Below, one piece after another: positions 25,364 through 62,103 of a stretch of DNA of 64,000 nt. This DNA comes from Schmidtea polychroa (Eukaryota), in the NCBI GenBank assembly GCA_044892525.1, contig CM097887.1, positions 10,230,001 through 10,294,000 of the forward strand, in the 5' to 3' direction. The notes beneath the pieces were generated by a model. It searched no databases and was not told the origin of the DNA. It saw only the letters and a program-made list of their open reading frames with translations. The translations under genes were made by a program, and so were the position numbers. Numbering within the stretch: the stretch's first letter is position 1; every line of letters starts with the position of its first letter.

Positions 25364-25365
<2 letters not shown>

Positions 25366-26120
25366 TTGGGTTTATGTGCAAGTCGGTATCAAGACTAATA
25401 CAAGTACACTTTTTGATTACACTCTTTTTTGAACAATTACAATCTTTAATAACTCTTTGATCTGCACTTTTCAATAATACAATAAATCTCACGTAGGGAT
25501 AATCTTCCAACGGGAGATGTCCCTTTCTGGTACGTTCGATTTCAAAATATCTAATTATAACAACTGTTAAATCCTTTTACTCACTCGTTTAATTCTACTA
25601 AATTTTCGACCACCTGGCAATTATATTTCTTTGCTGGTTCCTTTTATACTTGACCCGTCAATTGATTTTAATTCGTCAAGCCCTTCGTATCCAATTTCCC
25701 GGGCTTCCTCCTATCTCTTTCTCTCATTGTCCTAATTTAATTTTCGTCGACCGATCTAATTTCCCCTTTGATCTACCATTTAGGCTCTCCCATGACACTA
25801 GGGCTTTCCATTATCTCGGGTTTCCCATTAGCTCGGGTTCTCCATTAGCTCGGATTTCCCATTAGCTCGGGCTTCCCATTAGTTAATTAATTTTTGTTTT
25901 TTGTAATTTATTCTTTCTAGGGACCCCCCATTGATTTTATTATATTTGAACTCGTCTCATAATTTGGCATCCGCCCATACCAGTTTCCTCCGAAATTATT
26001 CAATTTTTGTTTTTTTGATTATTTTAATTAATATCTTTGTATTTTACATTTATTATTATGAATTTGGTGTTTTCATTGATTTTCACCTCAATTTTGCATC
26101 TCTTTTATTGAACCCCAACA
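25364..26120 (-). repeat. 3' LTR (757 bp)
   Basis: Matches 47579-48380 apart from about a dozen substitutions and several indels (62-bp deletion, two extra 17-bp repeats). Confidence 0.96.
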
Positions 26121-26133
26121 TATCTCCCCCTTT
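26121..26133 (-). other. Polypurine tract
   Basis: Minus strand reads AAAGGGGGAGATA immediately before the 3' LTR TG. Confidence 0.85.
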
Positions 26134-26458
26134 AATATAGATTCGTCCTCGAATCTGTACATTTCTTATAGCTGAAATAATAACAATACAGAGCTATGAC
26201 GAAATATATTTAAAATCTTGAAATAATATATGTAAAAACTTGAAACAATATATTTAAAATCTTGAAATAATATATTTAAAATCTTGAAACAATATATCTA
26301 AAAACTTATATTGAAATTTAAAAACTTATATCGATATTTTAAAAACTTCCAAACAATAAATATTAGATTCAATCCAAGAAGCTTTAATGCGCAGTCCATT
26401 CTTTTTAAGCTAATTCATATATAACAAAGAAATCACAAATAACGAAATATCGATTTAT

Positions 26459-27515
26459 TCAAATAAACTCTTGTCTAGCAAGAGCTTTTTCAATATATTT
26501 CCTCATGTTAGCAAACCAACCACCAAAATCGATTCCTTCATTATCCAGTGTAGTCCGTATTCTGGTTTTCAATTCATCTCGATTTGCAGCCGAAGGATGA
26601 ATGGCAAATAGCACCGATTTAAAATGGCTAAAGTACTCTTCAATCGGAGTAAGGGGGTAAAAATCGAAAATTAATATTATTAGACTCCAACAGACTAATA
26701 ACAGTCCTGGAATGGTGAAACCTACAGTTATCCATTATCAATACGTCATTCGGATTAGATCTAAAATGGCTCAACAACTTTTCCTCAATAAAACCACAAA
26801 AACTTTCTCCGTTAAAAGCACCATCTTTGATTTCATAAGAAACTATTCCAGATTTCTTAATTGCCACCATACAACTGATATTAGTACCACGATTGCCTTT
26901 AACGATTTTGTAGGCTTTTGAATTTTTGGGCGAGTAACCGTAGTTCCTGGTTTGATGCAAATTCAGTCCGGTTTCATCCAAAAAAACCAAATGATCATTC
27001 GAGATAAAATTTGTTTCACGGGCGTATCTTTGCCTTAGATCGATATTTTTAGGGGTGTTTCGTTCCTGTGGAATTCTGACCAGTCGTTTCCTGGTATATT
27101 CCATCTTTTTAAGTATTTTAGAAACAGCACTCGAGCACCTAGTTATTCCGGAGTGTTGCAACTCTTCGGATAGTTCGGGCTGGGTAAATGAGGCGTCTCT
27201 TTGTAAAATTTGGCTTATTTTGGATTTCACGACGGACAAATCTGCCATTTTCCTTCCTTTCTTCGGACCGCAGATTTCTTCGTCCGTTGCGCCGTCGCAT
27301 AGTTTTCCGACCAGGTTATATGCGGTCTTTAGACTAATCTCTTGCTCGGAGGCGATTGTTTTTGTATCGGTATTTTTTTCAACCGATTTTCGGACTCGTT
27401 TTATGATTTCGAGCGTAACAGTTTGCCGCCTTTTTCGAACCCTGACATCTTGGCGCTCTTCGGAGGTTTGTTCAGTGCTGTTGGACATGGTTGAGTGATT
27501 TAGTTTTGAATGCAT
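26459..27515 (-). pseudogene. Tc1/IS630-family transposase with a ~14-nt deletion at ~26640
   Basis: HTH region, VFLDETG, MDNCRFHH, FLPPYS|PIEEYFSHFK continuing in a shifted frame to RQEFI* at 26459. Restoring PxLN gives DD34E. Confidence 0.92.
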
Positions 27516-27574
27516 AAATTCCAGTCTTAAAATATATCGATGTAGGTTTTTAAAATTTCAATATAAGTTTTTAG

Positions 27575-28107
27575 ATATATTGTTTCAAGATTTTAAATAT
27601 ATTATTTCAAGATTTTAAATATATTGTTTCAAGATTTTAAATATATTATTTCAAGATTTTAAATATATTGTTTCAAGATTTTAAATATATTGTTTCAAGA
27701 TTTTAAATATATTATTTCAAGATTTTAAATATATTATTTCAAGATTTTAAATATATTATTTCAAGATTTTAAATATATTGTTTCAAGATTTTAAATATAT
27801 TATTTCAAGATTTTAAATATATTATTTCAAGATTTTAAATATATTGTTTCAAGATTTTAAATATATTATTTCAAGATTTTAAATATATTATTTCAAGATT
27901 TTAAATATATTATTTCAAGATTTTAAATATATTATTTCAAGATTTTAAATATATTATTTCAAGATTTTAAATATATTGTTTCAAGTTTTTAGATATATTG
28001 TTTCAAGATTTTAAATATATTATTTCAAGATTTTAAATATATTGTTTCAAGATTTTAAATATATTATTTCAAGATTTTAAATATATTATTTCAAGATTTT
28101 AAATATA
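27575..28107. repeat. 22-bp tandem array (ATATATT(A/G)TTTCAAGATTTTAA), about 24 copies
   Basis: Direct reading. About 4 inverted copies at 26205-26295. Confidence 0.95.
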
Positions 28108-28983
28108 CTAATAACAATAACAATAATAATAATAACTTTCTATTTATTTTTATAGAAATCAAGCTGAATGCCTTTCCAATAGTAGCATCATGAAAATAGT
28201 TCCTTGTGATAAATTTGTGATTTTTATTTTCCTCAATATCCTATTATCATTTTCATCTCTAAATTTGATGTGTATATATTTGCAGTGTTTTGCTAAATCG
28301 TCATTAAAAAAAAATATTTTAATTTATAAAGTAACTACATTATTCAATTAACAAAATATTGATTAAATTTCACTTTAATAAAACTTTAATGAAATAAACA
28401 ATTTAAGAAAATGATGTTGATTTTAGTTTTAATAAATAATCAATGAAACATTTATCCTCAATTTGCCGTACCTATCTAACTGCATAGAATTCATTTGCAA
28501 AATTTCCTAGCAGCAGAACTTTTTTGAAAAATTATGTATAATTTAAATAATTTGCCGATCAACTGGAGCCGATGTAATCGGACTCCTGTCGGTTGATCTC
28601 AATTTTCATGGAGGGAAGAAAGACGGACTAATCTTTTTATTAGATTATTTTTTTTTATTATTTTAATTTTAAAACTTTATCGAAAGTTTAACGAATTTTT
28701 TTGATTGGACAAGATTTAAAATGAATTTCAAAAGGGAAGACTTTAGATGAATTTCAGTTAAACTGCTATTTAAGAATTGAAATAAAATAAATTCTTTTTA
28801 ATTGAATTTTAATTTTATGGTATTTACTGAACTTTATAAAGGCAATTATTATTATGATCTGTCAAAAGTAGTTTTTCGAATTTATCGCAATAAATGCAAT
28901 TATTATATAATCAAAACATTTTTCAGTGAGTGAACTTTTAATTTTATTTTTTTCACAGTTTTTTTTTGGAACTTAAAATATAT

Positions 28984-29147
28984 AAAATCGATAAAAATGT
29001 TTTTGTCTAATGAATTACAAATATATAAAATCGGTAAAAATATTTTTGTCTAATGAATTACAAATATAGGAAATCGGTAAAAATGTTTTTGTCTAATGAA
29101 TTACAAATATAGAAAATCGGTAAAAATGTTTTTGTCTAATGAATTAC
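28984..29147. repeat. 43-bp tandem repeat, about 3.8 copies, in the element 3' UTR
   Basis: AAAATCGGTAAAAATGTTTTTGTCTAATGAATTACAAATATAT starts at 28984, 29027, 29070 and 29113. Confidence 0.9.
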
Positions 29148-29430
29148 TACTAAATTAAATAATAAATTGTTATGATTTGTCGCAACCTGTTTATGTGGCT
29201 CTTGACAACCACTCATTTCCAATTGTTGTCCATGGTAGCCAAACCCCGACAATTGGAATTGTGTTTGTTGTTATATACAGTAATAGTTTTATTTATTTAG
29301 TCATTTATTTACTCATTCAATTATTTACTTATTTATTCTTATTTTGGGGTCTTACTGATGCACTGCCAATAAATACATGAGACAAAATCGAGTTCACAAT
29401 TATTTATTTTATAAATACAATATATAAAAA

Positions 29431-30895
29431 TTAATCCATCTTTATTTCTAATCGTTTTGTTTCATGCCGATATCGTATTATTGTTTCTTCTCGTTCATAT
29501 ACTACTCCATTGACAGTGACAGTGTCTCCGACATCAATGTTTGAAGTTGTTTTTCTCTTCTTGGATTTTCTACATTCTGGCATTGGACCATATTCAAGTG
29601 TTGGATGTGTCCTTATCATCGAAATGCTTATCATTAATGCAACACATTCTTCCGCAATTTCTAAGAATGATTCATTGGCCCACTTCAATTGAATCAATGG
29701 ATTTTCACTATCCATCGTTACATTCTCCTCGAATGTTAAATCAATTTCTTCAGATTCCATTACATCTTCAATTGGAATTTGCGTTAGTTTTTCTGGTATT
29801 GCAGTTGATGTTGATTCAATTTCCCGAAGCTTCTTATATTCATCCCACGAATATCTCTGACGGTTGATTTTTGGGCATCGGTATGTCATCAATCCATTGA
29901 CTTTCCACTCTCTGGTATACCTTGCGTATACTTTTCACGTCCTCGAGAGCCGAATGAATACTCATCTGAGTCTCTTCTCCACATATTTCTTTCACCACTG
30001 TTTGTAGTTTGAACCATTCTCCCTTTATGGTTACTCCCATGTTCTGAAGTATTGGTGCTGCTGCTAGATCTCGAATGCCGTACAATTGTTCAATCCATAT
30101 CCCCAAGTATTGTAATTCTGCATGCAAATCATGGCCGATCAATATCTTGCCCACTGTCAAGTGTTGAATCTCTTTTATTGCCACATATTGATCACATTGG
30201 TTCCTGCTGGCCACTTCTGTAATTCCATGGATCCTTGAATTAAAATGTCGGATTTTTCCTCTTGGAGTGAGGTATACATCTTTAACTACTTTCCCATAAT
30301 AATTCATAATTGCTATTGCTAAAGGGACCATTTTTTCTTGCTCTGATGTGCCTTATTCAGCATCAATGAATAATATTCTATTGCGGATTTCTTCTAGATA
30401 CATTTCTTTTCTGAGAAACGACAATTTCTTTTTCAACATTTCCTTTGAAATTTTCAATAACAATGGGTCTTCTTCAATTAGATGCATCTGTGGTACCTCG
30501 TCCGCTTCATTCTCAGTTCTGATTTCCACCACCAACGTTGTCTCCTCATTCGCTGCTCGTAGTGTTCTCCACATGAAGTCCTTCTGCAGCTTCCACGATG
30601 TGAATTTTCGAAGTTGCCACCATATTGTATTATCGTTCTTCAGCACTTCCACTGTACCTCTGATCACGTGTATGTGATATTCTTCCTTCCGAGACAACTC
30701 AATTTCATCTGTCAATTTCAATTCTGAATTTCTCCTTATTGTAAACATTCGTATCTTCATTCTTCTGTCATCTATCCGCAAATAATTTGGAATTTGTAAA
30801 TTTTCATTGATTTCGTATAATTGTTGGCTGGCATGATTTTTCTGCATCTTGAAGTAACTGTCGTAGGTGGATCTTGCCCATTGTACTTGTTCCAT
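29431..30895 (-). pseudogene. LTR element ORF3: N-terminal unknown domain + DEDDh (REX4/ISG20-like) 3'-5' exonuclease + C-terminal unknown domain; one stop (30353) and one frameshift (~29875)
   Basis: ILFIDAE* (ExoI), AIAIMNYYGKVVKDVYLTP..FNSRIHGIT, ILIGHDLHAELQYL (ExoII), HSALEDVKS (ExoIII). ORFs 30353..30895 and 29840..30331 share a frame. Confidence 0.85.
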
Positions 30896-31298
30896 TTTTG
30901 CTAAAATAGTTATAATTTAACGTTTGAATTTAATTTACTTTTAAAACTAGGGCTGAGATAAAGTATCCGAAGGATACTGTCCCAACTATTAGCTGTATAA
31001 ATAATAATAATAATAATTACCGATTTATTTGGGTGTCTGTTTATTTTTTGTTTCATTTTTTTTTAAATTAATTAAGTTTAATGAGTTTAAACCCGCCTTT
31101 TATACCCTTATCAAAATTTTCTTACCCTTTCATTTTCTTAGTGCTAACCAATCAAATTAATGCTTTTATTTCGTATTGAAAAGTGCAGATTCACATAAAT
31201 AAAATAAATAAATAAAATTCTGATTACATTCATAAAATATTAGTACTGTATTACTACTGCTACTTTATCAAATGTGCATGCAAAGTATTTGTATCTTA

Positions 31299-32192
31299 CT
31301 ACACAAAAGTTTCTTCATAGACAATCCAAGGTCTCGCAATCTCGGATTGGTTCGTAGAAGATTTGGATATTGTTCGAGATTCATTTGACACAATGATGAT
31401 GAGAATAATGAGAAAGATTATTATAGTTAGACTAGTTGATAATAATGTTACACACACAATGTCATTATCAGTATTTAATAATGTAAAATAGCTTTTTGAT
31501 TGGGTCCGTTTTTCGGGAAACATTCACCGTTTGATTGTAGATGTGAAAGATTACTCGGTTTGTTTCATTAACTAATCGTATCATGTGTTGACTAGAATGG
31601 ATTTTGACCCATTGACTCTTAATTTCGGTTCCATTTTCATAGAGATTTTTCATAATAATGAATGTGAATATTATAAGTGTGATGTTGTTTTAAATTGACA
31701 TAATTTACAAAGGGTTTTCTGCTGTTCAGTGTATCGATTGCATAATTTTGAAAAACTATTTTTATTTGTTGGGATTCACGGGGTTCCCAATATACGTCAA
31801 TTCCATTTACCAATGGTTCAATTGATACCCGATTTTGTAATCTCTTTGTCCAAATATTAATGCGTATAAGATTTTGTATTTTTGTATTATTACTTTTCGA
31901 ATCCAATTGCGTAATTAACCAAGGGTATTCATAATTCATTGTTAATTGTCTAGCCACATAAATATTTTTGGTGCTGTTCAATTTTATTGGGGGTTCAAAG
32001 TAGTTTATTAGATTATTTATCTCTATTTCTTCTGCTTCTCCAGCATAATAAACCCAAACTATTTGAGTACATGTTGAATAAATATGAACTTTGTCTAATA
32101 ATACAACTGTATTAGTTGCATATAATGGGAATACTCTCACTGCATTTACTGACATTATATTGATAATCATTACTGTTGTAATCAATAAAACT
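31299..32192 (-). CDS. Second predicted type-I membrane glycoprotein at the end of ORF2 (unknown family)
   Basis: Signal-like VLLITTVMIINIMSVNA (32141-32192), sequons NST/NNT/NGT/NET/NQT, and C-terminal TM TIIIFLIILIIIV (31389-31428). Confidence 0.6.
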
Positions 32193-32309
32193 TTATTGAT
32201 GTAACTCAATGGGGCAGGGTTTTTTGTAAACTTTTGTTTAAGGAATGTGTTTCCTTCATCTTTATTAAGTTTTGATCTTAATGGGTAACGTGATTCATCT
32301 TCTACTAGT

Positions 32310-32530
32310 ATCTTTTTACATCTATTTACATGAACGATGATTGTTCCAGCCTTTTTATTGTTTTGTGGACGCAATTTTAAATTAGTCTCTGTTGTATCGC
32401 ATACTAGATATGGTCCTTTAAACGGTCGTTGTAATTTCGCTGACAATCCCTTTGTTGGTTCTGGTTTGTTTATATACACTAGATCTCCAATTTCAATATC
32501 ATGCGCCCGTGCGCGTTCATGCACTATTTC
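32310..32530 (-). CDS. Gypsy integrase C-terminal GPY/F (SH3-like) module
   Basis: HDIEIGDLVYINKP..GLSAKLQRPFKGPYLV...IIVHVNRCK. Confidence 0.88.
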
Positions 32531-32554
32531 TCCAGTTTGCCCTTTTATCAACTT

Positions 32555-32860
32555 TCCAGTTTTCAGATCGAGAGAAATTCCTTGTAGTTGCTCCATTACG
32601 TCCATGCCAATAAGGCATTTTACAGGGCTGTTCCTCATTACTGATACCCAATGAATTATTTCTTGATTTCCAATTATCAGTTTAACTTCTAATTTTCCAA
32701 CAATATTTAGTGCATTATGTGACATTGATTTAATAATGTGATTAGTTGGTTTTATTTTGGCTTTCTCCTGATACGTCAAGAAACTTTCCGCTACTATAGT
32801 GTGATTTGAGCCTGAGTCTAATAAAGCTTCCACTTTTCTCTTATTAAACTGTATGTTTGT
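32555..32860 (-). CDS. Retropepsin-type aspartic protease
   Basis: KVEALLDSGSNHTIV (DSG at 32810-32818) and CLIGMDVM. Confidence 0.92.
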
Positions 32861-33296
32861 TCGAGGTTGTCTTCCTCCTACTACTGCTGTCATAAGTGCA
32901 TAGCTACATGGTAAACCAAGCATATTTTTTCTTTCAATCTCAGCACTCGTTGGTTCAATCTTTTCTAATTCGATTGTGATATTATCTACAGGTTTCATTT
33001 CTTTTAATTGTTCATTTGGATATATTGGTGCTGTTGGTTTAAATGTTGGAGTGTACCATCTAGTAAGAGTATCAATTCCACTTAGTTTTGGCATTGGTTC
33101 AAGTAAAAATCTGGATTCTGGCTCCCTTTTACTTTTTATTACACTTTTTCGAAAGCATTTATGTTCTGATTCGCCGTTGCTACTGTCATTGTTATGATCG
33201 TCGTTTTTGTCTTCCGACTGACATGTAGATTCCTCACTTCTCCGGCCATTTCTCAACTGCACTCTTACTCTTGCCATTTCTTTAAATTGATGATCT

Positions 33297-35089
33297 GTAA
33301 TAAAGAATCTGGCCAATAATGGAATACAGCCAATAATTAATTTCCATGACCATCCAGATATTGCATATATTCGATGTACTGATAATATCTGTGACACTAT
33401 CACCTTTGCTGTTATCACGATTACGTAAATTCCGATTAAGCCTGCACATGCTTGTCCCAAAAACATGAACTTGCCCCAAATCTTTTCCATCGTTTTGTAT
33501 GTAGCTCGTTTGAAATGATCAGGTGTTAGCAAATACTCGTAATTTACTTTTCCTTCCCCATTCGGTAATATCGTGTCAATCATTTCTGAAATTACTCGTT
33601 CTTTCTTGGATGGAAACAACAAATTTCTTTGAGCTTCTTCAATATCCTCGCTTGGGTACAAACTTATTTGTGCCATTTTGTTTAATGATGTGAAATTTAT
33701 CAGGTATTCTAGATTTGTTGATTCTAATTTGTCTGGAGTCTTGACTCCACGATAGTCTGGTAAAGCTATCCAAGAATCTGTTGCTAATCGGTATAAGGGT
33801 GCTAATAATCTATTACATTGTAAAATCTTTGGTTTAGTTTGTTCATCAAGCAAAATTCTAGTTATCGGTTCCATAAATCGTATCTTTCCACCGAGGCTTA
33901 CTGGTAGTTCGTTTGTGCATTTTTCATATTTAGTAATTTTCACTGAGACTTCTTTGCATTTGTAACTGTATAACGCTTCTCCAAAAATTCTCGCAAACAC
34001 GCCACTTTCTGATATTAGCATAGGTGCTACTAAATTTGGATTCGTAATTGCCATCGCCATTCGATTTCGAAGAATCTCTTTGTTTAGCTTGCAATCGTTT
34101 AGAATCATTTCTCTATATACATTTTCCATGATGTTTTGACTAAAATGAAACAAATAATCAATTTTATTATTAAAATAATGAGTAAGTTTAATATCATCTC
34201 TGTGAATTTTAATTTTTGCCTCTTCCACAACATTTCTAGACACATAAACGCCTTTATAATTTGTTACATACACCATTCAACCACATTTGTTGGTGATTTC
34301 CTTTTTTACAAATCGCATGCCATCTTCTGGTAATGTAGACATTAAAACTGTTCCCATTTGTTTTGTCCATATTGGAGTTGACTTAATAGTATCATTTGGT
34401 CTATATTTCGTATTAAAACTATCAGGTTTATCTCTAAACTGTTCTCCCACTAGCTCTTTAAAATTCATAGTTTTTAAGTGTGCTAAAATACACTTATTGG
34501 TTTCGACATTATAGACAAGAATCGATTCCCCCGTTTGACAATTTGTTTGTTTCATATTACAGAATGGATGTGTTTGTAGCTTTCCCGAATTATCGTCGAA
34601 AGCTCCTTCAAACTCTCTCAACTCTGTTAGATATTCTTCCAGCACAACTGTGTGCTGAACAATTTTACCATTCATTTTGTATGGTTCACCTTCACAATCG
34701 CCATTTGCTTTCATAACTCCTTTTACAATTATTGTTTCTCGTATCCTATGATTCAATTTTGCCTTTAAACGAATTTCCGGACTTATTTTTAATTCTCCGG
34801 TTTGAAATGCTGTTAGACAGTTTTCTGGGAGTACCTCAACTGGCCTAGGTATCGCATGCATTTTTATAAGTGACGTATGACTCCATTTGCCACAATAGAA
34901 TACAAATGTTGTATGTTTGACAATACACTCTCTTACTTGAGTTCTTCGTAAATCAGACTCTTGATACACGTAATATTTTATATCATTTTCTATTTTCAGT
35001 TTACTAGTATACGCACCTGGGCATTCCGACATATCAACTACTGAATAAATTTTTCCCATTTCAGTTTGGGAGCAATCATATGCAACTAA
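33297..35089 (-). CDS. Chuvirus (Jingchuvirales)-like envelope glycoprotein
   Basis: Mature N-terminus LVAYDC after a signal peptide. Motifs FYCGKWSH, GDCEG, CG.MVY.T, YFNNKIDY, GEALYSYKCKEVSV..CTNELPV..RFMEPITRIL, and C-terminal WGKFMFLGQACAGLIGIYVIVI TM. About 600 aa with one stop at 34277. Family recognised from motif memory. Confidence 0.78.
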
Positions 35090-35242
35090 TGATGATGTCT
35101 GCGTAATTATTGCACAAAATGTAATCATCATAAACATTGCCCACGGAAATATCATAGTTTTTCGCAGTTCTGGTCGAACTCTCTCATTGACTCGTTTTTG
35201 AGGTGGTTTCCTCTCTTGATTCTCGTTTTTCTTTTCTGTTAG

Positions 35243-35512
35243 AGACGAACACAGTGTTCTCCAACCACCATTTTCCTTTACCCAGTTCATTAGATATTCG
35301 TTTACTAGTCTGGCAGCGATATCTATCAAGTTATCTAATTTATCTGATTTCGCGAACGCATACGTTCCACTTTCTAAAACAATATAAGTTAAAGCTGTTA
35401 TTATCACATCCTTGTTAATTTCATATTTTGTTAAATTTTCAATTACTGATCTCTCGCAAAATGTATCCTCTTCGCCAAATTTCTGTACTACTTCAGGCAG
35501 TCTATTGTTCAT
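35243..35512 (-). CDS. Bcl-2-like domain (clear BH2, degenerate BH1)
   Basis: YLMNWVKENGGWRTL matches BH2 WIxxNGGW. EINKDVIITAL sits at BH1 spacing (NWGR degenerate). Followed by a basic linker and a hydrophobic anchor at 35090-35155. Confidence 0.7.
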
Positions 35513-38500: not shown

Positions 38501-39202
38501 GAGAGAAGATAATCATGGCCAAGCATATTCCCGATCGGCCATGGCCCGCATATCAGCACCGGACATTCATTCGTAGATTAGGCTTTCTTGTTTTCGCTAT
38601 CTCTCTCTGGTGAGATTATTATTACTGTTTAGGAGCATTCAATGCCTCTTTCTGATAAGTTAAATGCTGTATTCTAAAAATTAGTTATTTTTTCGGAGTA
38701 GAAAGACTCCATTTGCGATTGTTGTAGCGTTACTATAGATACAATATTATAATATATATAGAATGTGGTAATTAGGAAGGAGCGATTATAGTATTGATAT
38801 GAACGCAAAATGGTACCACCAGTTGGGCGGAGCCTTTACAAAGACTCCTACAGGTACCAAACTGATAGTACCTTTACCATATTGCTAAATGGGCGGGATT
38901 CCTACAAGAGTCCCTACATCAACCCTTTCAGCAATAACCAAGAGTATTATATACATATATTTATCAATATAACGAGATTTATATATTATTGTATTATTAA
39001 AAAGTATATTTACGTTTATTAGTTTATTTAATTTTATTTATGGTAGTTTATTTATATTAAATAAATTAATCATATTAAATTATATTAGTTTATTTATTTT
39101 GTTTTTATTAGTTTATTAAATAGATTATTTATATTAGTTTATTGGTGTTGGAAGAAATAAATTCATTTTTACAAAACATCAAAAAAAAAACAAAAGTAAA
39201 GG

Positions 39203-42200
39203 TTATTTTATTTTATTTTATTTAATATATGTACTTAGAGTCGATATCAAAGATCATAGCAGATATAGTACAGATAAGTCGATATATATAGTAGATGTAG
39301 GACATATAAAGGTGACGGTTTGATGATATAATATTACCATAATGGACAAATAAATAAGGATTAATAGATAAGAAGTACTTTTATTATAGTTTAATTAATT
39401 AGTCGATGTATGTGTGCTCGCGATATGTATGGTAGCTACTGACAATGGCTGCCGTGCATGCTACTCTTGAGATTGATTTTATCTCTTTTTTGGTTAGTCC
39501 TATTATTTTAAGTCTTGTATCGTTTTCCTTATCCCACGATCCAAGAGTACCTACTACAAGTGCTGCAACTGTTGTTTTACATTTATATGCGTGGCCTATT
39601 TCAAGTGCCAGATTTTTATATTTTTCAAAATTATTATCCCTAGCTATTTTAAAGTTTTCACGATTTTCGTAAGGTACTTTAATGTCTAGGATATGTATTA
39701 GGGAGTTCCTGGACGATTTAATTATTATGTCGGGTTTAAGTGTAGTTTTGACACCTTCGGGGCAGATTTCAATGTCCATTTTGAAGTTTAGTTGGGTCAG
39801 GAGGTCAGTGACAGCTTCAAGTACACGCGAGTGTTTATTTCTCCGTGCATTTATTTTTACAGGGCAATGATTGAATATGTGGGCCTGTGTTTCAGGAAAG
39901 GCTCCACATTGTCTGCAAAAAGTGCTTAAATTGCCTTTTATTCTATGTGGAGTATATTTAAGGTTGAGAATATTGTTTCGTGCCCTTAAGAGGAAAAGAA
40001 ATTGGGCATCGTTTAGAGTATCAGTTTTTATAAAGTAGTCTGCTGTTGTACTATCAGAGATGGATTTGGCTATGTGTCCTTGACAGGTAAGGAGGCACCA
40101 CCTTTCAGTGTGTATCAGGCTTATTATTGAATGAAGTTCGGAAGATGTATCAGATAAGTTAGACGATGAGAAGTAATTAATACGGTCCTTATATATTATC
40201 TCTAATTGGTATTCGTCTTCTAAAAGGACTATTTTGGTGTGTATGGCGTATTTTATGCGAAGGCGATTGGATGCTTTGCGGAATTTTACAAAGAACGAAA
40301 AAGTAGGAAATGATTTTGAAATCTCGTCATTGACCCATAGGAATGCGGCTTCCATATTACCCATTCCACGAGATTCCGCCAGTTCATCAAGAACTAGTTT
40401 TCGGAACCCAAGGTCGACCGAATTCAAGGCTCGAATGAGATGGATGATACTCTGTATCAGATATTCATCTATTGCAGATGTGAGCCCAAGGCCTCCCATT
40501 TTAGTTGAGGCATATAAAAAGTTATTATTAATATTAATAATTCTGTCACCTATAAAAGTCTTTATTATAATTTTTATTTTTTGGTCAAACCCTTTTTGGG
40601 GTTTTCTATATTTAATAATATTATCCTTATGAGAATCAAGCATATTGTGAGCTATTTCGCAATTACGTAAGGTGAAAGAAAGACGTGAGTGGATAAAGAT
40701 CTTATAGGCATTAAGTTTTTGCGAGGGATGTAGATGAGAGTCGAAGATAGACTTTGTGTCTTTTATGGCATTATCGAGTCTTTCATCTATGTTATGGCTC
40801 AGTTTGAAAGAAAAATCAACTCCAAGATATCTGTAAAGGTTGGAGTCATCAATTCGCGGAATAAGTTCATTATAAAGTTTTATAGGAGAATATTCATAAT
40901 CATGGTTAATGTGAAAGTAACCAGATTTAGAGGGTTTGAATCGAAGGTTAGCCATAGAAGCGAGACGTACAGTTTCGAGAAGAGCGACGTTTATAGAGGT
41001 ATATGAATTAGCAACAAGGACAATGTCATCCGCATAAGCAAGTATGCCGACATTATGACCATGGAAAAGAAATGGATGATTTTGCAAGATATTACGTAGT
41101 ATGAAGTCTATAGATAAACAGAAGAGGGTCATAGACAGGGGACAGCCCTGTTTTACACCCTTAACAATTGGTACAGAAGAGGATTTTTCCCCCTCGCAGT
41201 CAAATATAGTATTTACGTTGCTATACATATCCTGTAGTAGCAAGATGGTTTTTGAGTCAAGACCCATTTGGGAGAGGGTGTGCCAAATTAGATCATGAGG
41301 GAGCGATCCAAAAGCGTCAGAGATATCTAACCATATAATGTGGAGGTCAGTTTTTTTTACGAAAGGAGGATTCCTTAAGAAGATGTAGGATAAAGTTATG
41401 CTCAGAACAACCATCTGGAGCACCAATGGCTTTTTGGTTGCATGTCAATAAATTACCGTCTTTGATCCACGATAAAAGGCGGTTATTTAGGAGGGAAGAG
41501 AAGATGCGATATGCAGTGTTCATTAAGGAGATGGGGCGCCAAGAGCTGGCCTCGTGACTGATTTTAGCTTTACCATTTTTCAGTAGGAGTTTCGTACGGA
41601 AAGTTTTCCAGGATGATGGGCAATTGCGGTTGCGTAAGATGTTGTTACAGAGCGATAGAATGAAGCTGAAGTCAGGTGAGATTTTTTTCCAATCAGCCAA
41701 AGTGATTCCATCGAGTCCTGGAGCAGTGTTTTGAAGTTGTGAGAAAATGAATTTGATATCATTCAAGGCAAAAGGAGTGGATGAGAGTTTTTCCGGTAAA
41801 GATGGAAGGTTTTTAATAAGATCCGTATTGCAGTGTGCGGAAGTACCTGCGAAAAGTCTCACAATATTAGACATAGTTGGTTTGCTACACTCAACTTTAT
41901 TATTTAAGATCTTTGTTATCTCCTCTTTAGGTTTAGTTTTATATTTAAAACGTTTAATGCAGAGCAGTTCATTTTTTGTCCTAGTTTTCTTATGGACAAT
42001 GTCTGCAGGTTTTTTAATTTTATATTTATCAGGAGAAATAAATGAATTTATTTTTTGCATTTCATTAAGGGCTGTTTCACAGTCCATATTATTATTATTT
42101 AAATTAATTATTATGCTTTTAATAAGTGGGGAATATTTTTTAATATTATCTTTAGGTATTTTATGAGAAATATAGTTTTCGATAACAGTTCTGATATATT

Positions 42201-43071
42201 TTTGCATGATATCAATTTTAGGAGTAGTTAATTTTGTATTTCTTATTAGGCATTTGATGAAGTGGCACACAAAAAAGGCAGATTCGTTTGAGGAAGAGCA
42301 ACGGGGGTACTCATATTTAGTGAGTCTAATTGTGATTGGTGAGACGATTTTTTGAAGATCAAGAATGGTATTAAGTATGCTATTTGCTAGAGATAAGTGT
42401 ATGGAGTGGCTATCATCAAGTAAAGGATCTATTATAACAGCAAGATGTCTCCGCTTATCAAGATAGAAGAAAAACCAGTTGTCTTTGCCGTTTGACATTG
42501 GCATAATGATTTCGTTCCACTCAGCGAAATCTTTGAAAGGGAAGGAAGAAAAGAAAGTTATGTAATTGTGTTGGATTAGAGCGTTACCAACAAAGGGGTC
42601 AACGAAGATGGTGGATTTTTTGATGGCGAAGGAGTAAACGAATGCCTTTATTGTGTGCTGGGACCATCAGGCTGACTCCTTATCAACATTATTAGTGAAT
42701 AAGCAATCATCTGGTATATCCCTACTAAATTCAATATTAATCATATCTTCATCTGAAGAAGTTAGTTTTGCTTCCTGGGTGTTTACAGGCACCTCCGGGG
42801 TGTTTACAGGTATCTCGAGGTTAACTGCAATCACCTCCTGGGTGTTTAGAATATTGTTTAATATATTATCATTAATATCCATGGATACAGGCATTTCGGC
42901 GGTATGATTTTGTGATGTTAGTGGGATATTATTAGTGTTAGGTGGTATTGGGTGTCTTTGGGCTATATGATTTATAATGTCATCTATTGGGACCCAGCAA
43001 TTGTAGTAGGAAACAAAATCCACTAGCAAGCAATTTTTCCTATCCGATCTCGTCGTAACTTCGTTACTCAA
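39203..43071 (-). mobile_element. RLE-type non-LTR retrotransposon (NeSL/Utopia-like) nested in the LTR element; 5' end not defined
   Basis: One ~1220-aa frame 43071->39399 with one stop (42667) and one homopolymer frameshift (~41350). Ulp1-like domain; RT (WRPISL, WLDISDAFGS, GVKQGCPLS, YADD, YRYLG); CRQCG..ETQAHIFNHC; PD..D..KY endonuclease; (TAAAA)n tail at 39203-39223. Confidence 0.92.
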
Positions 43072-45116
43072 TTTACTACCTATGGTTTCAGTGTGTTCAG
43101 AAATGACGTCACCGCCTTACACTTTGTCTGGGAGTTAGTAGATGCACATGTGTGTATTGTTAGAGTTATTTGTCGTCGCATGTAGGTTGGCTGCTGGATT
43201 TTATGTGAATGGAAAAAAAAATCTATAATAGGAATTATGACATCGATGTTCTAATTTTTAGATTTTCGCCGTGTTGATCGACTCGATTCCAACTCCACGA
43301 TTGTTATCCTATTAGCCATATTTACTCCGATAGTCGTCGATAAACGCATTTATGAAGAAGTCGTTATCCGATAATCTATAACGGGGTGTATTTGGAAAAT
43401 AGCTTATCTATCCACTACCGTTCGATTGTAGGAGAATAGGATTGTAAGATAAATTTTCAACGACTGGCCGATTCACGGATTTTCTCAAGACTGTCGTGCG
43501 TATTTACACTGGTTATCGCAAAACTTTGATATTTTTTCTAGGCGAACGAGTTGACGACGATGACAGCTTTTCAACGTTTGTTTGCCGATTTCTTTCGAAT
43601 CGGATAAAAGAAAAATCGGAGTGATAGATCTACCCGCTAACGTCTTAGCGGTGTGCATCCCTAAAGAATTTTGTTCTTAAGAAAGCTACGACGAACCTCA
43701 TGGATATTTTTAAGCAAAACATAGTCCTCTATCATTTAAATGGTTTTAGCAATAACTCGTCCATCAGCGTCGAAAGTGACAAAGTTCATTGAAAACGATT
43801 GAATTCGCGGGAATGCTTGGACATATGCAGCTTTTTCCTGGACTTCCTATGGAATTCCTCTTCCTATCGAGATGAATGACAATTATTCCCTTATGAAAAG
43901 AATCCTCGAGAGTAAATGATCTCACTCGGCGAAAAGGTTCCTCTCAGTTCCATTGTCATCGTCTACCAGATGTCCTCACCCTTCCTGACCCACCCAAGAA
44001 CGGCATACATCTCTGCCACCATTCTTGGACCGTCAGGAAGGACGATTCTATCTCTCCAAACCTCAATCATTGATATATCATGAACGATTATCAAACGAAA
44101 AATAAATCATATAGTTTACAAGATGGATTAATATTACTAGAAAAAATTATTTACCTGGCGACCACGCCGCCTGAATCTCGAACATGATGTTACATCGTGA
44201 TACTTATCGCACATTAACATTTCATTCCCAGTGAGGTTAATTTCATTCAAATTCTCGATTCAACATCTTCGTTTCTTATCGTTCGCTCCCAAGCATTTCC
44301 TTGCAAATTCATTCGAGTCTCCGCATCATGTCCGATCTCCAGACAACATCGTCGCCAGCATCATAGAGAGAGAACATCTTTGTAATCAATAGATTTTTAT
44401 TAAAAATAAAGTATTTTATTTAATCATTTTTATGTAAATCAATCGTAAATCAAACTTCATTCATCCCACCTACTATTAGTTTCTCCTCGAGAGTATTGAA
44501 AATGAGGTCTAGATTTTTCTCTTCCAAGTTAAGCGTCCTATTATTTTAGATGTAGTCCCTGTAAATCTGTTCAATGACGTTTGATAAGTGGTTCCTGTAT
44601 GATTCGTAGATCCTAGTCTGTAGAGCAGTTTGGGTAAATGGTCAATTCAATAAACTAAAATTTTTACCTGTAGAGCAGTTTGGTTAAATGGTACTCTACA
44701 GATATTTTCTATTTCTTTTATATTATTTTTCGTCCAATCAGGACACGACTTGTGTGTAATATTATTATTTATTATTATTTTTATGTTTTTTAATAAAATA
44801 TGGTATATTTTAATAACTTTTCTTATTTTTATTATTATTTTAGTTATTTTCCTATTTTTTATTATTTTCCTCCTGTTTTTTCCTGTGACCTTATTGTTTT
44901 TTTGGTTATAGTATAATTTTTTGTTTTAATTAGTTTATATATTTATTTGATAATGATTTACTTTATTTTATTTCCTAATTTCTGGTTTATTTTTCTTAAA
45001 TTTATTATTTTATTTCCTTCTGCTATTATGTGTGGTGAGTTATTTTCTTTTTCGTCTTATAAATTTTATTATTTTATTAGTTATTTTTATTCCCTTTATT
45101 TCCTATTTCTGTTATG

Positions 45117-47115
45117 TTAATCTAATTTAGTTGTTCTTTTATTTTCCGCGCTCTTCGCGAAATTTATTTTATCCCCTTTATTCATCTTTAACCTGATTTC
45201 CAATACTCTCGAAGCTTGGCCCAACACTACCAAGAATTCATCGTTTTCTAGCGGTCTATCATTAAATCTCAATTCTATCATGCCTCCTTCCCGTTTCTCT
45301 TTTAATTTAATTTTTAAATCATTCACGCTATCATTTGCCTCACAACGACAACAGATTATACTTTTATCAATCTCATCTACTACTTCTACAAAAATGAAAT
45401 CAAACCCTTTATTTTCCCTTAACATCTTTCCAAACATTTTCATTAATTCCTTAATTTCGTCTTCATACTTTGGATTCATGTTATAATAGTTAACACACAA
45501 GCTAATTACACTTTTTGTCTTTCTTATGCTCAAGGATATTTGACTTAATTCCTTCAACGATTTAATTATTTTGGCCGACTCTATTTCATTATTTCCAATT
45601 AATTTTTTTAATTCTTGTCATAATCATTGTTGCTTTTTCATTTTCTAAGTCATCTTTTATAACTTTCTTTTTCTCCTTTCCATTCAATTCTTCCGGTGCC
45701 TCATACATCATGTGATTATTATAGTCCTCGTCTGATTCAAACTTTGACATCAATAGATCTAAACGTCGACCCATTTCTCTCACTTCGCTTTCAATTATTT
45801 CATTAAAATTATCTGGCTGAACAAAAGCCACATTATCTGTCTGTGGTTTGTCACTTTGAAACCTAATCGACATCTTTAATATCGGCCTTTGAAATTTATC
45901 CGTATTCCTTGGACATGATCTGGCCATGTGTCCATAACCTCTGCATGAGTGGCACTGAATTTGTCCTTGTAAATTTAATTTATCTCTCTGCGGTGATGGT
46001 GATGTTGACGTTGATCTTGATCTGGCAAAACAATTTCGTGACATATGCCCTTTCCTTCCGCAATTATAGCACTGCAAATTCTCATTATTCCGCTGATCAT
46101 TGATATTCATTTTGGTGAAACTTTTCCCACCATTTCCTTTTAACCAATCTGGCCACATTTGCCTTGGACTACGTTGTACATTATTTTTGGACCAGCACTG
46201 ATTGCTGTCATGACCCATTCTTTGGCAATTATCACACTAAATTGGAATTGGGTTTCTCTGTACTCTATTTTTAAACCAACATTGGTCAACATAGTGTCCA
46301 ATCCTTTGACAATGACTACATTGAATAGGGCCTTCTTTTCCATCAATTTGAATATCTGTTGATTTGTTCGACTGAAATTTTGATCTAAAGTTTGGTGATG
46401 GACTACTTGTTTGTTGAAACCGATTGTTTTTAGATGGAGTTATTGATCTTTCCCTTTCGCCAGATATGACTGCAAACGACTCTGATTTCGACTGCGTACT
46501 TTTCAAATTCAACTCAATTTTCATTGCCTTTTTAATCAATTCATCAAAGTCATTAAAATCAACATAACACAAAGCCTTTTTAATTTCTTTCTTTACTCCG
46601 GACAAAAATTGATCCTGTAGCAACTCTTTTACTTGCTTTGCCATCTCAGCCTGTTCTGGTTTCACTTCGAATGCTTTCTCTGCAAGGGTTGTTAAATGAT
46701 AAGCAAACTCGCTTACGGATTCCTCTGACTTTTGTACACGGTTATAGAATTTCTACCGCATCATCCTTTTTATATCTCCTCCTATTAATTTAGCTGCAAG
46801 TGCGTCTTTCAACTTTGTCCAACCATTTGCTATTAATTTTTTATCAATTTGTTGCCATGCTTCTCTGGCTGCTCCTTTCAGGTATAGCGGTAATCTTTGA
46901 ACCATTATCGATTGGCTCCATCCATAGGCTGTCGCATACATATAATAATCTGCCATGAAGTCGACAAATGCCAACGGATCTCCCCCATACTGATCTACAG
47001 GTAGTTTTTGACAACTCGCATAGTCACTGCCTTCCTTGGCATTCCCCACAGAAACTGTGGACACGGGAGTTTCATCATTATTATTTGTATTATTAACTTG
47101 TCTTTGGGTACTCAT
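45117..47115 (-). pseudogene. LTR element ORF1: gag (capsid, four CCHC knuckles) + C-terminal ubiquitin-like domain; two TAG stops and one frameshift
   Basis: YGGDP..F..Y..A.AYGW..LPLYLKGAAREAW and QKSEESVSEFA..L..LA..QFLSG. Knuckles CSHCQRIGHYVDQC, CDNCQRMGHDSNQC, CYNCGRKGHMSRNC, CHSCRGYGHMARSC. ATG at 47115. Confidence 0.92.
45174..45401 (-). CDS. Ubiquitin-like domain at the gag C-terminus
   Basis: IFVEV..SIICCRCEANDSVNDLKIKLKEK..IELRFNDRPLENDEFLVVLG..VLEIRLK aligns by eye to ubiquitin (IFVK..[43 protein letters not shown]). No C-terminal GG. Confidence 0.65.
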
Positions 47116-47551
47116 TATATTCTCTACTAGTTTTTGGCTTCTCAATTTATAAAATGATCTGGTTAACACAGGTTTTACTCGTCTAAAATTTAAAGTATTG
47201 CAATTACAAAATTTACCTTTCGTTTTAATTTTGACTTTTCAATAATCAATATCCACAATTATTATTTTCACAAATCACCACTTTAATAATTTTCCAAAAA
47301 TATTCACCACTCTTAAATCAAATTTTTAACTTTAATATATGTATTTTTACCTTTTATCAATTTACAATACTTTCCCAATCTCAACAAATTTTTATCAACT
47401 TTTTATCACGTCAGTATTATTCGATATTTCAATCAAATATTTTTACACTTTAAACGAATTTTCACCAACTTTGGAACACGTTTTGAATCACTTCTGTATT
47501 GTTCGATATTATAGTCAAATACTTTCACAATTTCAACAAATTTTCACCGAC

Positions 47552-47574
47552 TTCAGATCACGTCGGGCTCACCA
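47552..47574 (-). promoter_or_regulatory. Primer-binding site complementary to the tRNA-Trp 3' end
   Basis: Plus strand TTCAGATCACGTCGGGCTCACCA resembles eukaryotic tRNA-Trp ...TTCAAATCACGTCGGGGTCACCA. Lies 4 nt inside the 5' LTR boundary. Confidence 0.9.
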
Positions 47575-47578
47575 AATA

Positions 47579-48379
47579 TGTTGGGTTTATGTGCAAGTCG
47601 GTATCACGGTCTGACTCCTTTGTGTTCTTTTTCAAAATCAAGATAACCCAACACAATAATTTTATTCAAGACTAATACAAGTACACTTTTTGATTACACT
47701 TTTTTGAACAATTACAATCTTTAATAACTCTTTGATCTGCACTTTTCAATAATACAATAAATCTCACGTAGGGATAATCTTCCAACGGGAGATGTCCCTT
47801 TCTGGTACGTTCGATTTCTAAATATCAAATTATCACAACCGCTAAATCCTTTTACTCACTCGTTTAATTCTACTAAATTTTCTTCGACCACCTGGCAATT
47901 ATGTTTCTTTGCTGGTTCCTTTTATACTTGACCCGTCAATTGATTTTAATTCGTCAAGCCCTTCGTATCAAATTTCCCGGGCTTCCTCCTATCTCTTTCT
48001 CTCATTGTCCTAATTTAATTTTCGTCGACCGATCTAATTTCCCCTTTGATCTACCATTTAGGCTCTCCCATGACGCTAGGGCTTTTCATTATCTCGGGTT
48101 TCCCATTAGCTCGGGCTTCCCATTAGTTAATTAATTTTTAATTAATTTTTGTTTTTTGTAATTTATTCTTTCTAGGGACCCCCCATTGATTTTATTTTAT
48201 TATATTTGAACTCGTCTCATAATTTGGCATCCGCCCATACCAGTTTCCCCCGAAATCATTCAATTTTTGTTTTTTTGATTATTTTAATTAATATCTTTGT
48301 ATTTTACATTTATTATTATGAATTTGGTGTTTTCATTGATTTTCAACTCAATTTTGTATCTCTTTTATTGAACCCCAAC

Positions 48380-48380
<1 letters not shown>
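47579..48380 (-). repeat. 5' LTR (802 bp) with TATAAAA (47920-47926) and AATAAA (47661-47666)
   Basis: TG...CA ends with terminal inverted repeat TGTTGGG/CCCAACA. Direct repeat of 25364-26120. Confidence 0.96.
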
Positions 48381-54174: not shown

Positions 54175-54308
54175 AAAGCCGATTGATTATAAAGCCGATT
54201 GATTATAAAGCCGATTGATTATAAAGCCGAATGATTATAAAGCCGATTGATTATAAAGCCGGTTGATTATAAAGCCGGTTGATTATAAAGCCGATTGATT
54301 ATAAAGCC
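54175..54308. repeat. 16-bp tandem repeat AAAGCCGATTGATTAT, about 8.4 copies
   Basis: Direct reading. Confidence 0.95.
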
Positions 54309-54899
54309 AATCATGTTTTATCTGTGAGTCATGGATGACTCCGTTGTATAGTCTTATTGTGTTTGTGTGTTTTGTTTATTTTAACCTTGTATCAATGACC
54401 ATTATTAATAGACATCCTCACCCCCCACTACACCACTACACCACTCTATACCACCTTCATCATTCTATACCTACCACTATCCTACTACAACCCATCACTA
54501 CTAACTATACCCTCGTCCATCACTAATACCTATAACCGCACCTATACCATCCATCATAACCCATATTCAGATATATCAAACACTTAATCTAACCTGGGAG
54601 AAGCAAACAATTACCAGTCTATCCTTTGAGCCCTGTCAACAACAATCCATCAAAACGCCCATCAATGTTTTACTCTGTACTCACGTACATCAAACAAGAA
54701 ATCAAGTTTAACGCTCGAGCCTCGGCACAGCGTTCTCTGGAAAACAGCACAACAGCTTTAGAAAGTTCAAGGGTTGAGAAACCATCTTCCCTTCCGCCCT
54801 AGTGGCCTGCTTTGTAATTATAATAAAATTTGATTTTTTTTCATTCGGTAAGACCATGATAGTTATAATTATTATCATTATATCATTATATCCTGAAAT

Positions 54900-61900: not shown

Positions 61901-62103
61901 NNNNNNNNNNNNNNNNNNNNNNNNNNNNNNNNNNNNNNNNNNNNNNNNNNNNNNNNNNNNNNNNNNNNNNNNNNNNNNNNNNNNNNNNNNNNNNNNNNNN
62001 NNNNNNNNNNNNNNNNNNNNNNNNNNNNNNNNNNNNNNNNNNNNNNNNNNNNNNNNNNNNNNNNNNNNNNNNNNNNNNNNNNNNNNNNNNNNNNNNNNNN
62101 NNN
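61901..62103. other. Assembly gap (N run)
   Basis: Direct reading. Confidence 1.

What the first reader, a model, noticed from the sequence alone, without database searches (positions are those of the whole stretch)
25364..48380. Giant ERV-like LTR element with a virus-style cargo set (Ubl, Bcl-2, chuvirus-like envelope, second glycoprotein, DEDDh exonuclease)
Seen: complete LTR/PBS/PPT/TSD architecture enclosing three large ORFs. Removing the nested Tc1 and LINE and restoring pol suggests a native length of roughly 20 kb (estimate). The combination of apoptosis-modulator, ubiquitin-like, nuclease and two membrane-protein modules resembles a complex virus more than a retrotransposon. Known: giant planarian Gypsy elements (Burro) are described and, from memory, carry accessory domains, so overlap with them must be checked. 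I do not know of this gene order and envelope type being described.
Basis: partly seen in the sequence, partly recalled or inferred. Interest (0 to 1): 0.92.

Follow-up and report, generated by a model that had tools for sequence, protein, structure and literature searches.

The report
Decayed enveloped planarian retroelement, Burro relative
This is a broken copy of a real, multi-copy, retrovirus-like jumping gene from what is likely a planarian flatworm; its envelope-in-the-middle layout and its ubiquitin-like and Bcl-2-like cargo are already published, but it also carries a predicted second surface protein and a predicted RNA-trimming enzyme that I could not find described.

Summary
The element is real. 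LTRs, an 18/18 tRNA-Trp PBS, a PPT and a 4-bp TSD are confirmed, and the modules are colinear in sibling copies.

The window copy is dead. Uninterrupted siblings are 15.5-17 kb, not 20 kb. They encode one 3,437-aa polyprotein (Gag-Ubl-Ubl-Bcl-2-Env-PR-RT-RH-IN-membrane module) plus one 496-aa exonuclease ORF, not three ORFs.

Gene order and envelope type are in print: Burro (PMC6431247) and GAG-ENV-POL gB-type errantiviruses (PMC13524379). The envelope is about 76% identical to Smed_errantivirus_1. It is not Burro1 itself (RT about 52%; no MATH, BIR or ankyrin).

Not found in print:
- an ISG20/REXO4-like DEDDh ORF under purifying selection, also present in distant metagenomic relatives;
- a post-integrase type-I membrane module whose PDZ-type C-terminus recurs in four lineages;
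- young pol-less, env-less derivatives that keep Gag-Ubl-Bcl-2 and that module.

Functions are untested. Grohme 2018, Lee 2026 and Repbase could not be read. The scan found this family before on other DNA of this genome.

The parts
47579..48380 (-). 5' LTR (802 bp, TG..CA)
   Evidence: 2901 first-look candidates, 40 scored, 42 matches in G000
47557..47574 (-). Primer-binding site for tRNA-Trp(CCA), 4 nt from the LTR
   Evidence: 18/18 match to the host tRNA-Trp gene plus CCA
45592..47115 (-). gag: capsid-like region and CCHC knuckles; interrupted by stops and a frameshift in this copy
   Evidence: zf-CCHC E=3e-10; Retrotrans_gag E=6e-8 in a sibling
45227..45617 (-). First helical + ubiquitin-like unit, split by the nested insert (remainder resumes at 36446)
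36447..45226 (-). Nested 8.8-kb insert, foreign to the family: about 4.1-kb solo-LTR-like unit (TG..CA, own 4-bp TSD) of another family, containing the LINE
   Evidence: absent from 23 of 23 siblings
38329..42998 (-). Nested non-LTR element with Ulp1-like protease, RT and a restriction-like endonuclease motif (NeSL/R2-like; clade name recalled)
   Evidence: Peptidase_C48 E=0.001, RVT_1 E=8e-21; independent 92-99% copies elsewhere
35870..36446 (-). End of the first and the second helical + ubiquitin-like unit (approximate bounds; one stop)
   Evidence: internal repeat E=1e-5; profile hits ISG15/ubiquitin folds E=1e-4
35230..35515 (-). Divergent Bcl-2-like domain (BH2-type GGW kept, canonical BH1 NWGR absent)
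   Evidence: PF00452 E=0.05 here, 0.005 in siblings, below cut-off; profile to Bcl-xL E=6e-4; alignment
33190..35160 (-). Env: internal signal peptide, class III (chuvirus/gB-type) fusion ectodomain, TM; one in-frame stop in this copy
   Evidence: PF24664 E=2e-24 and 3e-59; hydropathy; about 190/251 identical to Smed_errantivirus_1 (by eye)
32579..32869 (-). Aspartic protease
   Evidence: PF00077 E=9e-7
32300..32520 (-). Deletion junction (2.8 kb of dUTPase-like spacer, RT, RNase H and integrase core missing) and integrase C-terminal remnant
31299..32209 (-). Post-integrase type-I membrane module: signal-like segment, beta-rich glycosylated ectodomain, TM, tail ending E-T-F-V; frameshifted with a 0.3-kb deletion in this copy
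   Evidence: fold unresolved
29431..30916 (-). ORF2 (496 aa in siblings): uncharacterised N-domain, ISG20/REXO4-like DEDDh exonuclease, tail; stop and frameshift in this copy
   Evidence: ISG20L2 E=3e-11, ISG20 E=1e-7; catalytic D/E/H/D invariant in 7 of 7 aligned
26205..28107 (-). Nested Tc1/IS630-type DNA transposon with 22-bp-repeat TIRs in the 3' UTR
   Evidence: DDE_3 E=6e-23; inverted repeats; no hit in any fetched sibling locus
26121..26135 (-). Polypurine tract
25364..26120 (-). 3' LTR (757 bp); flanked, like the 5' LTR, by a 4-bp repeat inside (AAT)n

Best explanation
This is a decayed copy of a 15.5-17-kb, multi-copy Ty3/gypsy GAG-ENV-POL element, closely related to Smed_errantivirus_1 and distantly to Burro1, that likely works as an enveloped endogenous retrovirus of a planarian-type host. 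SHOWN: siblings encode one 3,437-aa frame (Gag-2xUbl-Bcl-2-like-Env-PR-dUTPase-like-RT-RH-IN-membrane module) and a separate DEDDh ORF; priming is by tRNA-Trp; integration leaves 4-bp TSDs; all modules are under purifying selection. INFERRED: the polyprotein is threaded through the ER at two internal signal peptides (cytosolic Gag/Ubl/Bcl-2, luminal Env, cytosolic Pol, luminal second glycoprotein, cytosolic tail) and cut by signal peptidase and PR. Env would fuse membranes for cell-to-cell spread. The second glycoprotein would be placed at membrane sites by host PDZ scaffolds. The Bcl-2-like domain, left anchored by the Env signal peptide, would damp cell death. ORF2, probably from a separate RNA, would trim RNA 3' ends, most likely to blunt small-RNA or antiviral defence (my odds about 40%; processing of the element's own RNA about 30%; proofreading about 10%).
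For: Colinearity: 18 of 23 siblings join the two sides of the window's insert directly, 15 of 23 carry 2.4-2.8 kb at the pol junction, and 10 of 23 show all modules with both LTRs. RT, RH and IN Pfam hits at E<1e-10 in L036, L038, L024. Open frames of 3,437 aa at 3 of 149 matches. dN/dS between subfamilies: gag 0.06, Env 0.08, RT 0.10, IN 0.09, Ubl 0.16 and 0.21, Bcl-2 0.22, post-IN 0.22. ORF2 against a diverged type: dN/dS about 0.07 (exo) and 0.13 (N-domain). Hydropathy gives SP-TM-SP-TM. C-terminal S/T-x-V/I in 54 of 77 focal/sister loci (some overlap), 20 of 20 Burro1-like, 20 of 20 L128-family and 2 of 2 metagenomic relatives, against 14 of 440 other ORF ends. Published match.
Against: No particle, fusion, nuclease or PDZ-binding activity is shown. 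The Bcl-2 match is below Pfam's cut-off, lacks NWGR, and two designed helical proteins outscore Bcl-xL. The post-IN fold is unresolved (pLDDT 34 and 39; no PDB or Pfam hit). Its ectodomain has no significant similarity to the metagenomic one, so homology across lineages rests on position, topology and tail only. 20 of the 23 siblings were chosen through ORF2 similarity, so ORF2 co-occurrence is partly by construction; the 3 chosen by LTR pairing also had it, one truncated. The 76% figure is a count by eye. ORF2 dS between subfamilies A and B is only 0.04, pointing to module exchange or ascertainment.
Confidence: 0.8

Rival explanations
1. An intracellular retrotransposon whose Env and cargo are kept for cell-autonomous reasons (membrane anchoring of assembly, keeping the host cell alive), with no extracellular particle.
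For: The polyprotein implies 1:1 Gag:Env:Pol, unusual for virions (inference). Young derivatives lacking the Env ectodomain and pol still amplify, with LTR pairs 96-99.9% identical. Burro1 is reported, second-hand, to protect stem cells from apoptosis.
Against: Env is as constrained as RT (dN/dS 0.08 vs 0.10) and keeps a full class III ectodomain, signal peptide and TM.
Confidence: 0.3
2. It is simply the orthologue of the catalogued Smed_errantivirus_1 family, with every part already annotated somewhere I could not read (Grohme 2018, Repbase, Lee 2026).
For: About 76% Env identity; listed spans of 14.5-18.0 kb for six Smed elements; Grohme 2018 and Lee 2026 not held.
Against: The 2019 review section lists no exonuclease or second membrane protein for Burro. 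The eLife main text has 0 hits for exonuclease, Bcl, Burro, fibronectin, ubiquitin and polyprotein.
Confidence: 0.3
3. ORF2 is a proofreader for reverse transcription that allows a large genome, as ExoN does for nidoviruses (analogy recalled).
For: Intact DEDDh residues; tight linkage to pol in focal, sister and metagenomic elements.
Against: The much larger Burro1-like and L128-type giants gave no tblastn hit to ORF2 in 19 of 19 stretches. The closest solved relatives are ISG20L2/ISG20 RNA trimmers, while PolC scores only E=0.055.
Confidence: 0.1
4. The ORF blocks are separate nested elements that happen to lie between two LTRs.
For: Three true nested elements do sit in the window copy.
Against: After removing them, the order is the same in every sibling that has the parts, and gag-to-tail is one reading frame.
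Confidence: 0.02

Closest known systems
Smed_errantivirus_1 (and _2), GAG-ENV-POL HSV/gB-type errantiviruses of Schmidtea mediterranea (PMC13524379; passages by word search and supplement rows seen, figures not seen)
   Same: Order gag-env-pol; gB/chuvirus-type Env, about 190 of 251 ectodomain positions identical to _1 (by eye); similar span; multi-copy (45 and 215 intact copies listed).
   Different: The paper's text does not mention Ubl, Bcl-2, a single polyprotein, a post-IN membrane module or an exonuclease, and lists no tRNA or LTR for these rows. Whether Smed_1 itself has these parts I could not check.
Burro / GYPSM1 giant Gypsy elements (PMC6431247 section 7 read in full; Grohme 2018 and Lee 2026 not readable)
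   Same: One polyprotein with Gag-CCHC..Ubl-Bcl-2-Env-PR-dUTPase-like-RT-RH-IN. Burro1-like elements in this genome (4,791-aa frame, MATH, ankyrin, BIR-RING ORF) also end in signal-ectodomain-TM and a T-x-V tail.
   Different: 16 kb versus more than 30 kb; 0.8-kb LTRs; no MATH, BIR or ankyrin; Env 33%, RT 51-53%, IN 52-54% identical; separated by a long, fully supported branch in an unrooted RH-IN tree; DEDDh ORF present here, not detected in the Burro1-like stretches.
Bdelloid rotifer Juno/Vesta LTR retrotransposons with DEDDy ORF3 (PMC5408684, passages seen)
   Same: A DEDD 3'-5' exonuclease as an extra ORF downstream of pol in a Gypsy element; activity undemonstrated there too.
   Different: Theirs is RNase D-like DEDDy and replaces env; here it is ISG20/REXO4-like DEDDh alongside a full Env.
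Anakin, mosquito BEL/Pao elements with a chuvirus glycoprotein (PMC7642597, search listing only; name recalled)
   Same: Chuvirus-type glycoprotein in an LTR retroelement.
   Different: BEL/Pao rather than Ty3/gypsy; no such cargo set known to me.

Membership tests
Ty3/gypsy (Metaviridae) | PR-RT-RH-IN order, H2C2 integrase, TG..CA LTRs, tRNA PBS, PPT, short TSD | tested here: met
   (pol read from siblings; deleted in the window copy)
GAG-ENV-POL HSV/gB-type errantivirus (PMC13524379) | gB/chuvirus-type Env between gag and pol | tested here: met
   PF24664 E=4e-88 between CCHC and PR; about 76% to the Smed_errantivirus_1 ectodomain (by eye)
GAG-ENV-POL HSV/gB-type errantivirus (PMC13524379) | Placement in the paper's Platyhelminthes RT clade and C1a cysteine pattern | not tested
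Burro clade (architecture) | Env in frame between Gag and PR in one polyprotein, with Ubl and Bcl-2 upstream | tested here: met
Burro1/GYPSM1 family proper | More than 30 kb, about 4,800-aa ORF1, MATH, BIR, ankyrin | tested here: not met
   15.5-17 kb, 3,437 aa, none of these domains; true Burro1-like elements in the same genome have them and are only about 52% identical in RT
Bcl-2 family | BH1/BH2 core above curated score; NWGR motif | tested here: inconclusive
   PF00452 17.9 bits vs cut-off 31.4; profile E=6e-4 to Bcl-xL; NWGR absent, GGW present
Ubiquitin-like fold | Profile similarity to ubiquitin-fold proteins | tested here: met
   E=1e-4 to ISG15, with many ubiquitin-fold chains among 99 hits; PF00240 E=4e-6, over cut-off, in relative L114
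DEDDh exonuclease, ISG20/REXO4-like | D-x-E ... D/E ... H-x4-D catalytic set and sequence similarity | tested here: met
   (third acidic residue is E in this family)
DEDDh exonuclease, ISG20/REXO4-like | 3'-5' nuclease activity | not testable with these tools
   needs an assay
Fibronectin type III membrane protein | FN3 fold of the post-IN ectodomain | tested here: inconclusive
   Atlas lead 0.83, under 0.9; AF2 pLDDT 34 and 39; no fold, PDB or Pfam hit; weak Fn3 E=0.004 only in metagenomic L050
Infectious endogenous retrovirus | Particle formation and entry into other cells | not testable with these tools
   no data

The most novel reading that the evidence does not exclude
The Burro/errantivirus group is a lineage of complex invertebrate retroviruses with a two-glycoprotein design: a class III fusogen plus a PDZ-anchored second surface protein that steers budding or cell-to-cell passage at junctions. 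The compact branch adds an ISG20-like nuclease as a counter-defence against piRNA/RNAi. It also supports satellite elements that drop Env and Pol but keep Gag-Ubl-Bcl-2 and the PDZ-tailed protein.
Probability: 0.25. Interest if true: 0.8.

Novelty: new variant of a known kind. Interest (0 to 1): 0.45.

Why it matters
The headline claim (new gene order and envelope type) is already published, so this is not a new kind of element. What remains matters to retroelement and planarian specialists. A virus-style nuclease and a second, PDZ-tailed membrane protein in a tractable regeneration model give testable handles on two open questions: whether planarian env-carrying elements move between cells, and whether retroelements encode counter-defences against piRNA silencing. 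The pol-less, env-less derivatives offer a natural test of which cargo is selected in cis, relevant to the host-transposon mutualism reported for Burro1 (seen second-hand only).

Tried and rejected
- Folding the post-IN module failed alone (pLDDT 34.5) and with an 18-row alignment (39.3). Foldseek on the second model gave no match at E<=0.001.
- Sequence and profile searches for that module found nothing: (0 of 2326 candidates, long proteins only). Focal versus metagenomic ectodomain was not significant.
- ORF2 N-domain: only a weak DUF7881_N hit (E=0.004-0.04); no PDB or Atlas hit.
- Env had no solved-structure relative by phmmer.
- Viral contigs: 0 of 28 candidate stretches encode an ORF2 relative.
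- Expression: no RNA holder listed. Contigs of four runs laid on the element cannot show transcription or splicing.
- The RH-IN tree (15 rows) has no outgroup and a long-branch warning; I draw no order of events from it.
- I could not assign the 4.1-kb solo-LTR-like unit to an internal region. Two copies 35 kb apart are duplicates of one insertion context, not the LTR pair of a giant element.
- Rejected: separate nested ORF blocks; 20-kb native size; membership of Burro1 proper; target preference for microsatellites (only 1 of the sibling flanks printed is in one).
- Papers not held: Grohme 2018, Lee 2026.


Full report
OBSERVATION. The window holds direct repeats at 25364-26120 and 47579-48380, read on the minus strand, with TG..CA ends and 19 mismatches in 732 aligned columns. 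Four bases after the 5' LTR lies an 18-nt PBS fully complementary to the 3' end (with CCA) of a tRNA-Trp gene that occurs as a tandem array in the same genome. A purine tract precedes the 3' LTR. The 4-bp flanking repeat sits in (AAT)n and is ambiguous alone, but 3 of 4 siblings with both ends printed have matching 4-bp TSDs. Pfam finds CCHC knuckles, a Monjiviricetes fusion glycoprotein in two pieces, an aspartic protease, a weak RNase_T, a weak Bcl-2, a LINE RT and a DDE transposase.

WHAT THE FAMILY LOOKS LIKE. The LTR gave 2901 first-look candidates (40 scored) and the exonuclease region 490 (40 scored) in G000. I examined 23 sibling copies: 3 chosen by LTR pairing and 20 by ORF2 similarity. 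In 18 of 23, window position 45227 joins 36446 directly; the other 5 lack that part; none carries the insert. 15 of 23 have 2.4-2.8 kb at the 32516/32520 junction, which Pfam reads as RT, RNase H and integrase. 10 of 23 show every module with both LTRs. Six siblings measure 15.5-17.1 kb and one with an extra insert 18.6 kb. Frames of 1,809 aa (gag to Env tail) and 1,601 aa (PR to the terminal TM) are open in single stretches, and 3 of 149 matches lie in 3,437-aa open frames. The design is therefore one polyprotein plus a 496-aa ORF2. The window copy is dead: stops and frameshifts in gag, the second Ubl, Env, the post-IN module and ORF2; a 2.8-kb pol deletion; a 0.3-kb deletion; a Tc1 in the 3' UTR; and an 8.8-kb insert. 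That insert is a 4.1-kb TG..CA unit with its own 4-bp TSD, found elsewhere without the LINE, with the 4.7-kb LINE inside it.

DOMAINS. Env is strong (E=4e-88). Two tandem helical + Ubl units are present (internal repeat E=1e-5; profile E=1e-4 to ISG15 among 99 hits). The Bcl-2-like domain is plausible but divergent (E=6e-4 to Bcl-xL, two designed proteins score higher, NWGR absent). ORF2 matches ISG20L2 (E=3e-11) and ISG20 (E=1e-7), with catalytic residues invariant in 7 of 7 aligned proteins, five of them from other public sources. Hydropathy gives signal-TM around Env and signal-TM around a post-integrase segment with 11 sequons. That segment's fold stayed unresolved: an FN3 lead at 0.83, failed models, no library hit. 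All modules show purifying selection between subfamilies (dN/dS 0.06-0.22). ORF2 is nearly identical between those subfamilies (dS about 0.04, either exchange or my selection through ORF2), but has dN/dS about 0.07-0.2 against a diverged ORF2 type.

RELATIVES. Of 6 diverged ORF2 loci followed up in G000, 4 showed gag, Env, pol and the post-IN module in order; 1 lacked gag in the fetched stretches and 1 was interrupted. Metagenomic loci L048 and L050 (2 of 12 loci) carry a Gypsy pol 48-50% identical to this family, then a second protease, ankyrins, a signal-ectodomain-TM tail and two DEDDh-type ORFs, the first apparently degenerate. True Burro1-like giants are in the same genome: BIR gave 309 candidates (150 scored), 4,791-aa frames are common, and MATH and ankyrin are present. 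They are 33% (Env), 51-53% (RT) and 52-54% (IN) identical to the focal family, gave no ORF2 hit in 19 of 19 stretches, and sit across a long branch in an unrooted tree. Their polyproteins also end in signal-ectodomain-TM. The last residues fit a class I PDZ-binding motif (definition recalled) in 54 of 77 focal/sister loci (some overlap; most misses are truncated frames), 20 of 20 Burro1-like, 20 of 20 L128-family and 2 of 2 metagenomic loci, against 14 of 440 other ORF ends. The ectodomains could not be aligned between the focal and metagenomic lineages, so shared ancestry of the module is inferred from position, topology and tail.

DERIVATIVES. A related family of about 8 kb fuses the Env signal peptide to the C-part of the post-IN module. 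It lacks the Env ectodomain, pol and ORF2, has frames up to 1,404 aa, and has LTR pairs 96-99.9% identical where seen (15 loci). 6 of 8 distinct internal deletion junctions that I could read keep the frame (about P=0.02 by hand at 1/3 each, not corrected for how loci were chosen).

MECHANISM. Shown: retrotransposon machinery, tRNA-Trp priming, 4-bp TSDs, single polyprotein, selection on cargo. Proofreading is disfavoured because the larger giants lack a detectable ORF2. No function was tested.

KNOWN. PMC6431247 (passages; section 7 in full) describes Burro with Ubi/SUMO-like, BCL2, in-frame Env with mononegavirus fusion-protein hits, PR, dUTPase-like and pol in one polyprotein. PMC13524379 (passages; supplement rows; figures unseen) catalogues GAG-ENV-POL HSV/gB-type elements, six in S. 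mediterranea. The Env stretch of Smed_errantivirus_1 differs from the window's at about 61 of 251 positions (count by eye). This, and the Burro1-like elements, is my basis for calling the host a planarian (inference). PMC5408684 (passages) reports DEDDy ORF3 in rotifer Gypsy elements. PMC13465017 (passages) relays Lee et al. 2026 on Burro1's anti-apoptotic B-IAP. PMC8532177 and PMC11410931 (passages) added only context. I found no description of the DEDDh ORF, the post-IN module or the PDZ tail in searches. Grohme 2018, Lee 2026, Repbase and the eLife figures were not readable and may bear on this.

VERDICT. A real, coherent element; a compact variant of a published design, probably the counterpart of a catalogued S. 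mediterranea family. Two cargo modules and a satellite-like derivative family appear unannotated. Earlier notes of this scan reached the same family on other DNA of this genome; they are not independent support. Interest 0.45; new variant of a known kind.

Noticed in passing
L107-L119, L124, L125 (e.g. G000:C1:204458986-204467654): Young non-autonomous family of about 8 kb: Gag-Ubl-Ubl-Bcl-2-Env signal fused to the C-part of the post-IN membrane module; no Env ectodomain, pol or exonuclease; frames up to 1,404 aa; LTR pairs 96-99.9% identical.
   Followed up: partly
L048, L050 (metagenome contigs): Distant Gypsy relatives with a second protease after integrase, ankyrins, a membrane tail ending T-x-V, two tandem DEDDh-type ORFs (first apparently catalytically degenerate) and, in L048, a Ubl ORF.
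   Followed up: partly
L134-L165 (Burro1-like) and L128, L166-L185: Both giant families end their polyprotein with signal-ectodomain-TM and a PDZ-type C-terminus (20 of 20 copies each), a part not listed in the 2019 Burro annotation.
   Followed up: partly
window 36447-45226: 4.1-kb solo-LTR-like unit of an unassigned family, inserted in the first Ubl, itself hit by a young Ulp1-protease LINE; in other copies of the unit other insertions (one with a hAT transposase, L132) fall at about the same position.
   Followed up: partly
G000:C4:55022437 onward (L192): Tandem array of tRNA-Trp(CCA) genes with a 284-bp period; probably most of the 842 reverse-strand pattern matches. It encodes the primer these elements use.
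   Followed up: partly
window 5207-8320 (+): Intronless proteasome RPN2/PSMD1-like gene with a 24-aa tandem repeat and one in-frame stop; four 90-92% paralogues with open frames lie on the same contig, and a 40% copy on C2. Looks like a local gene-family expansion.
   Followed up: partly
window 494-2916 (-): Fragmented hAT transposase (DUF4371 and hAT dimerisation hits).
   Followed up: no
L071/L073 and L120 versus L038: Copies with 97-99% identical polyprotein carry ORF2 types differing by about 12-27%, pointing to exchange of ORF2 between lineages.
   Followed up: partly
P0017: Public protein in which a fragment of this family's gag/Ubl region is fused to a phosphomevalonate kinase domain; probably a gene-model chimera.
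   Followed up: no
window 54143-54334 and 61901-62103: 16-bp tandem repeat; and a 203-base run of N.
   Followed up: no
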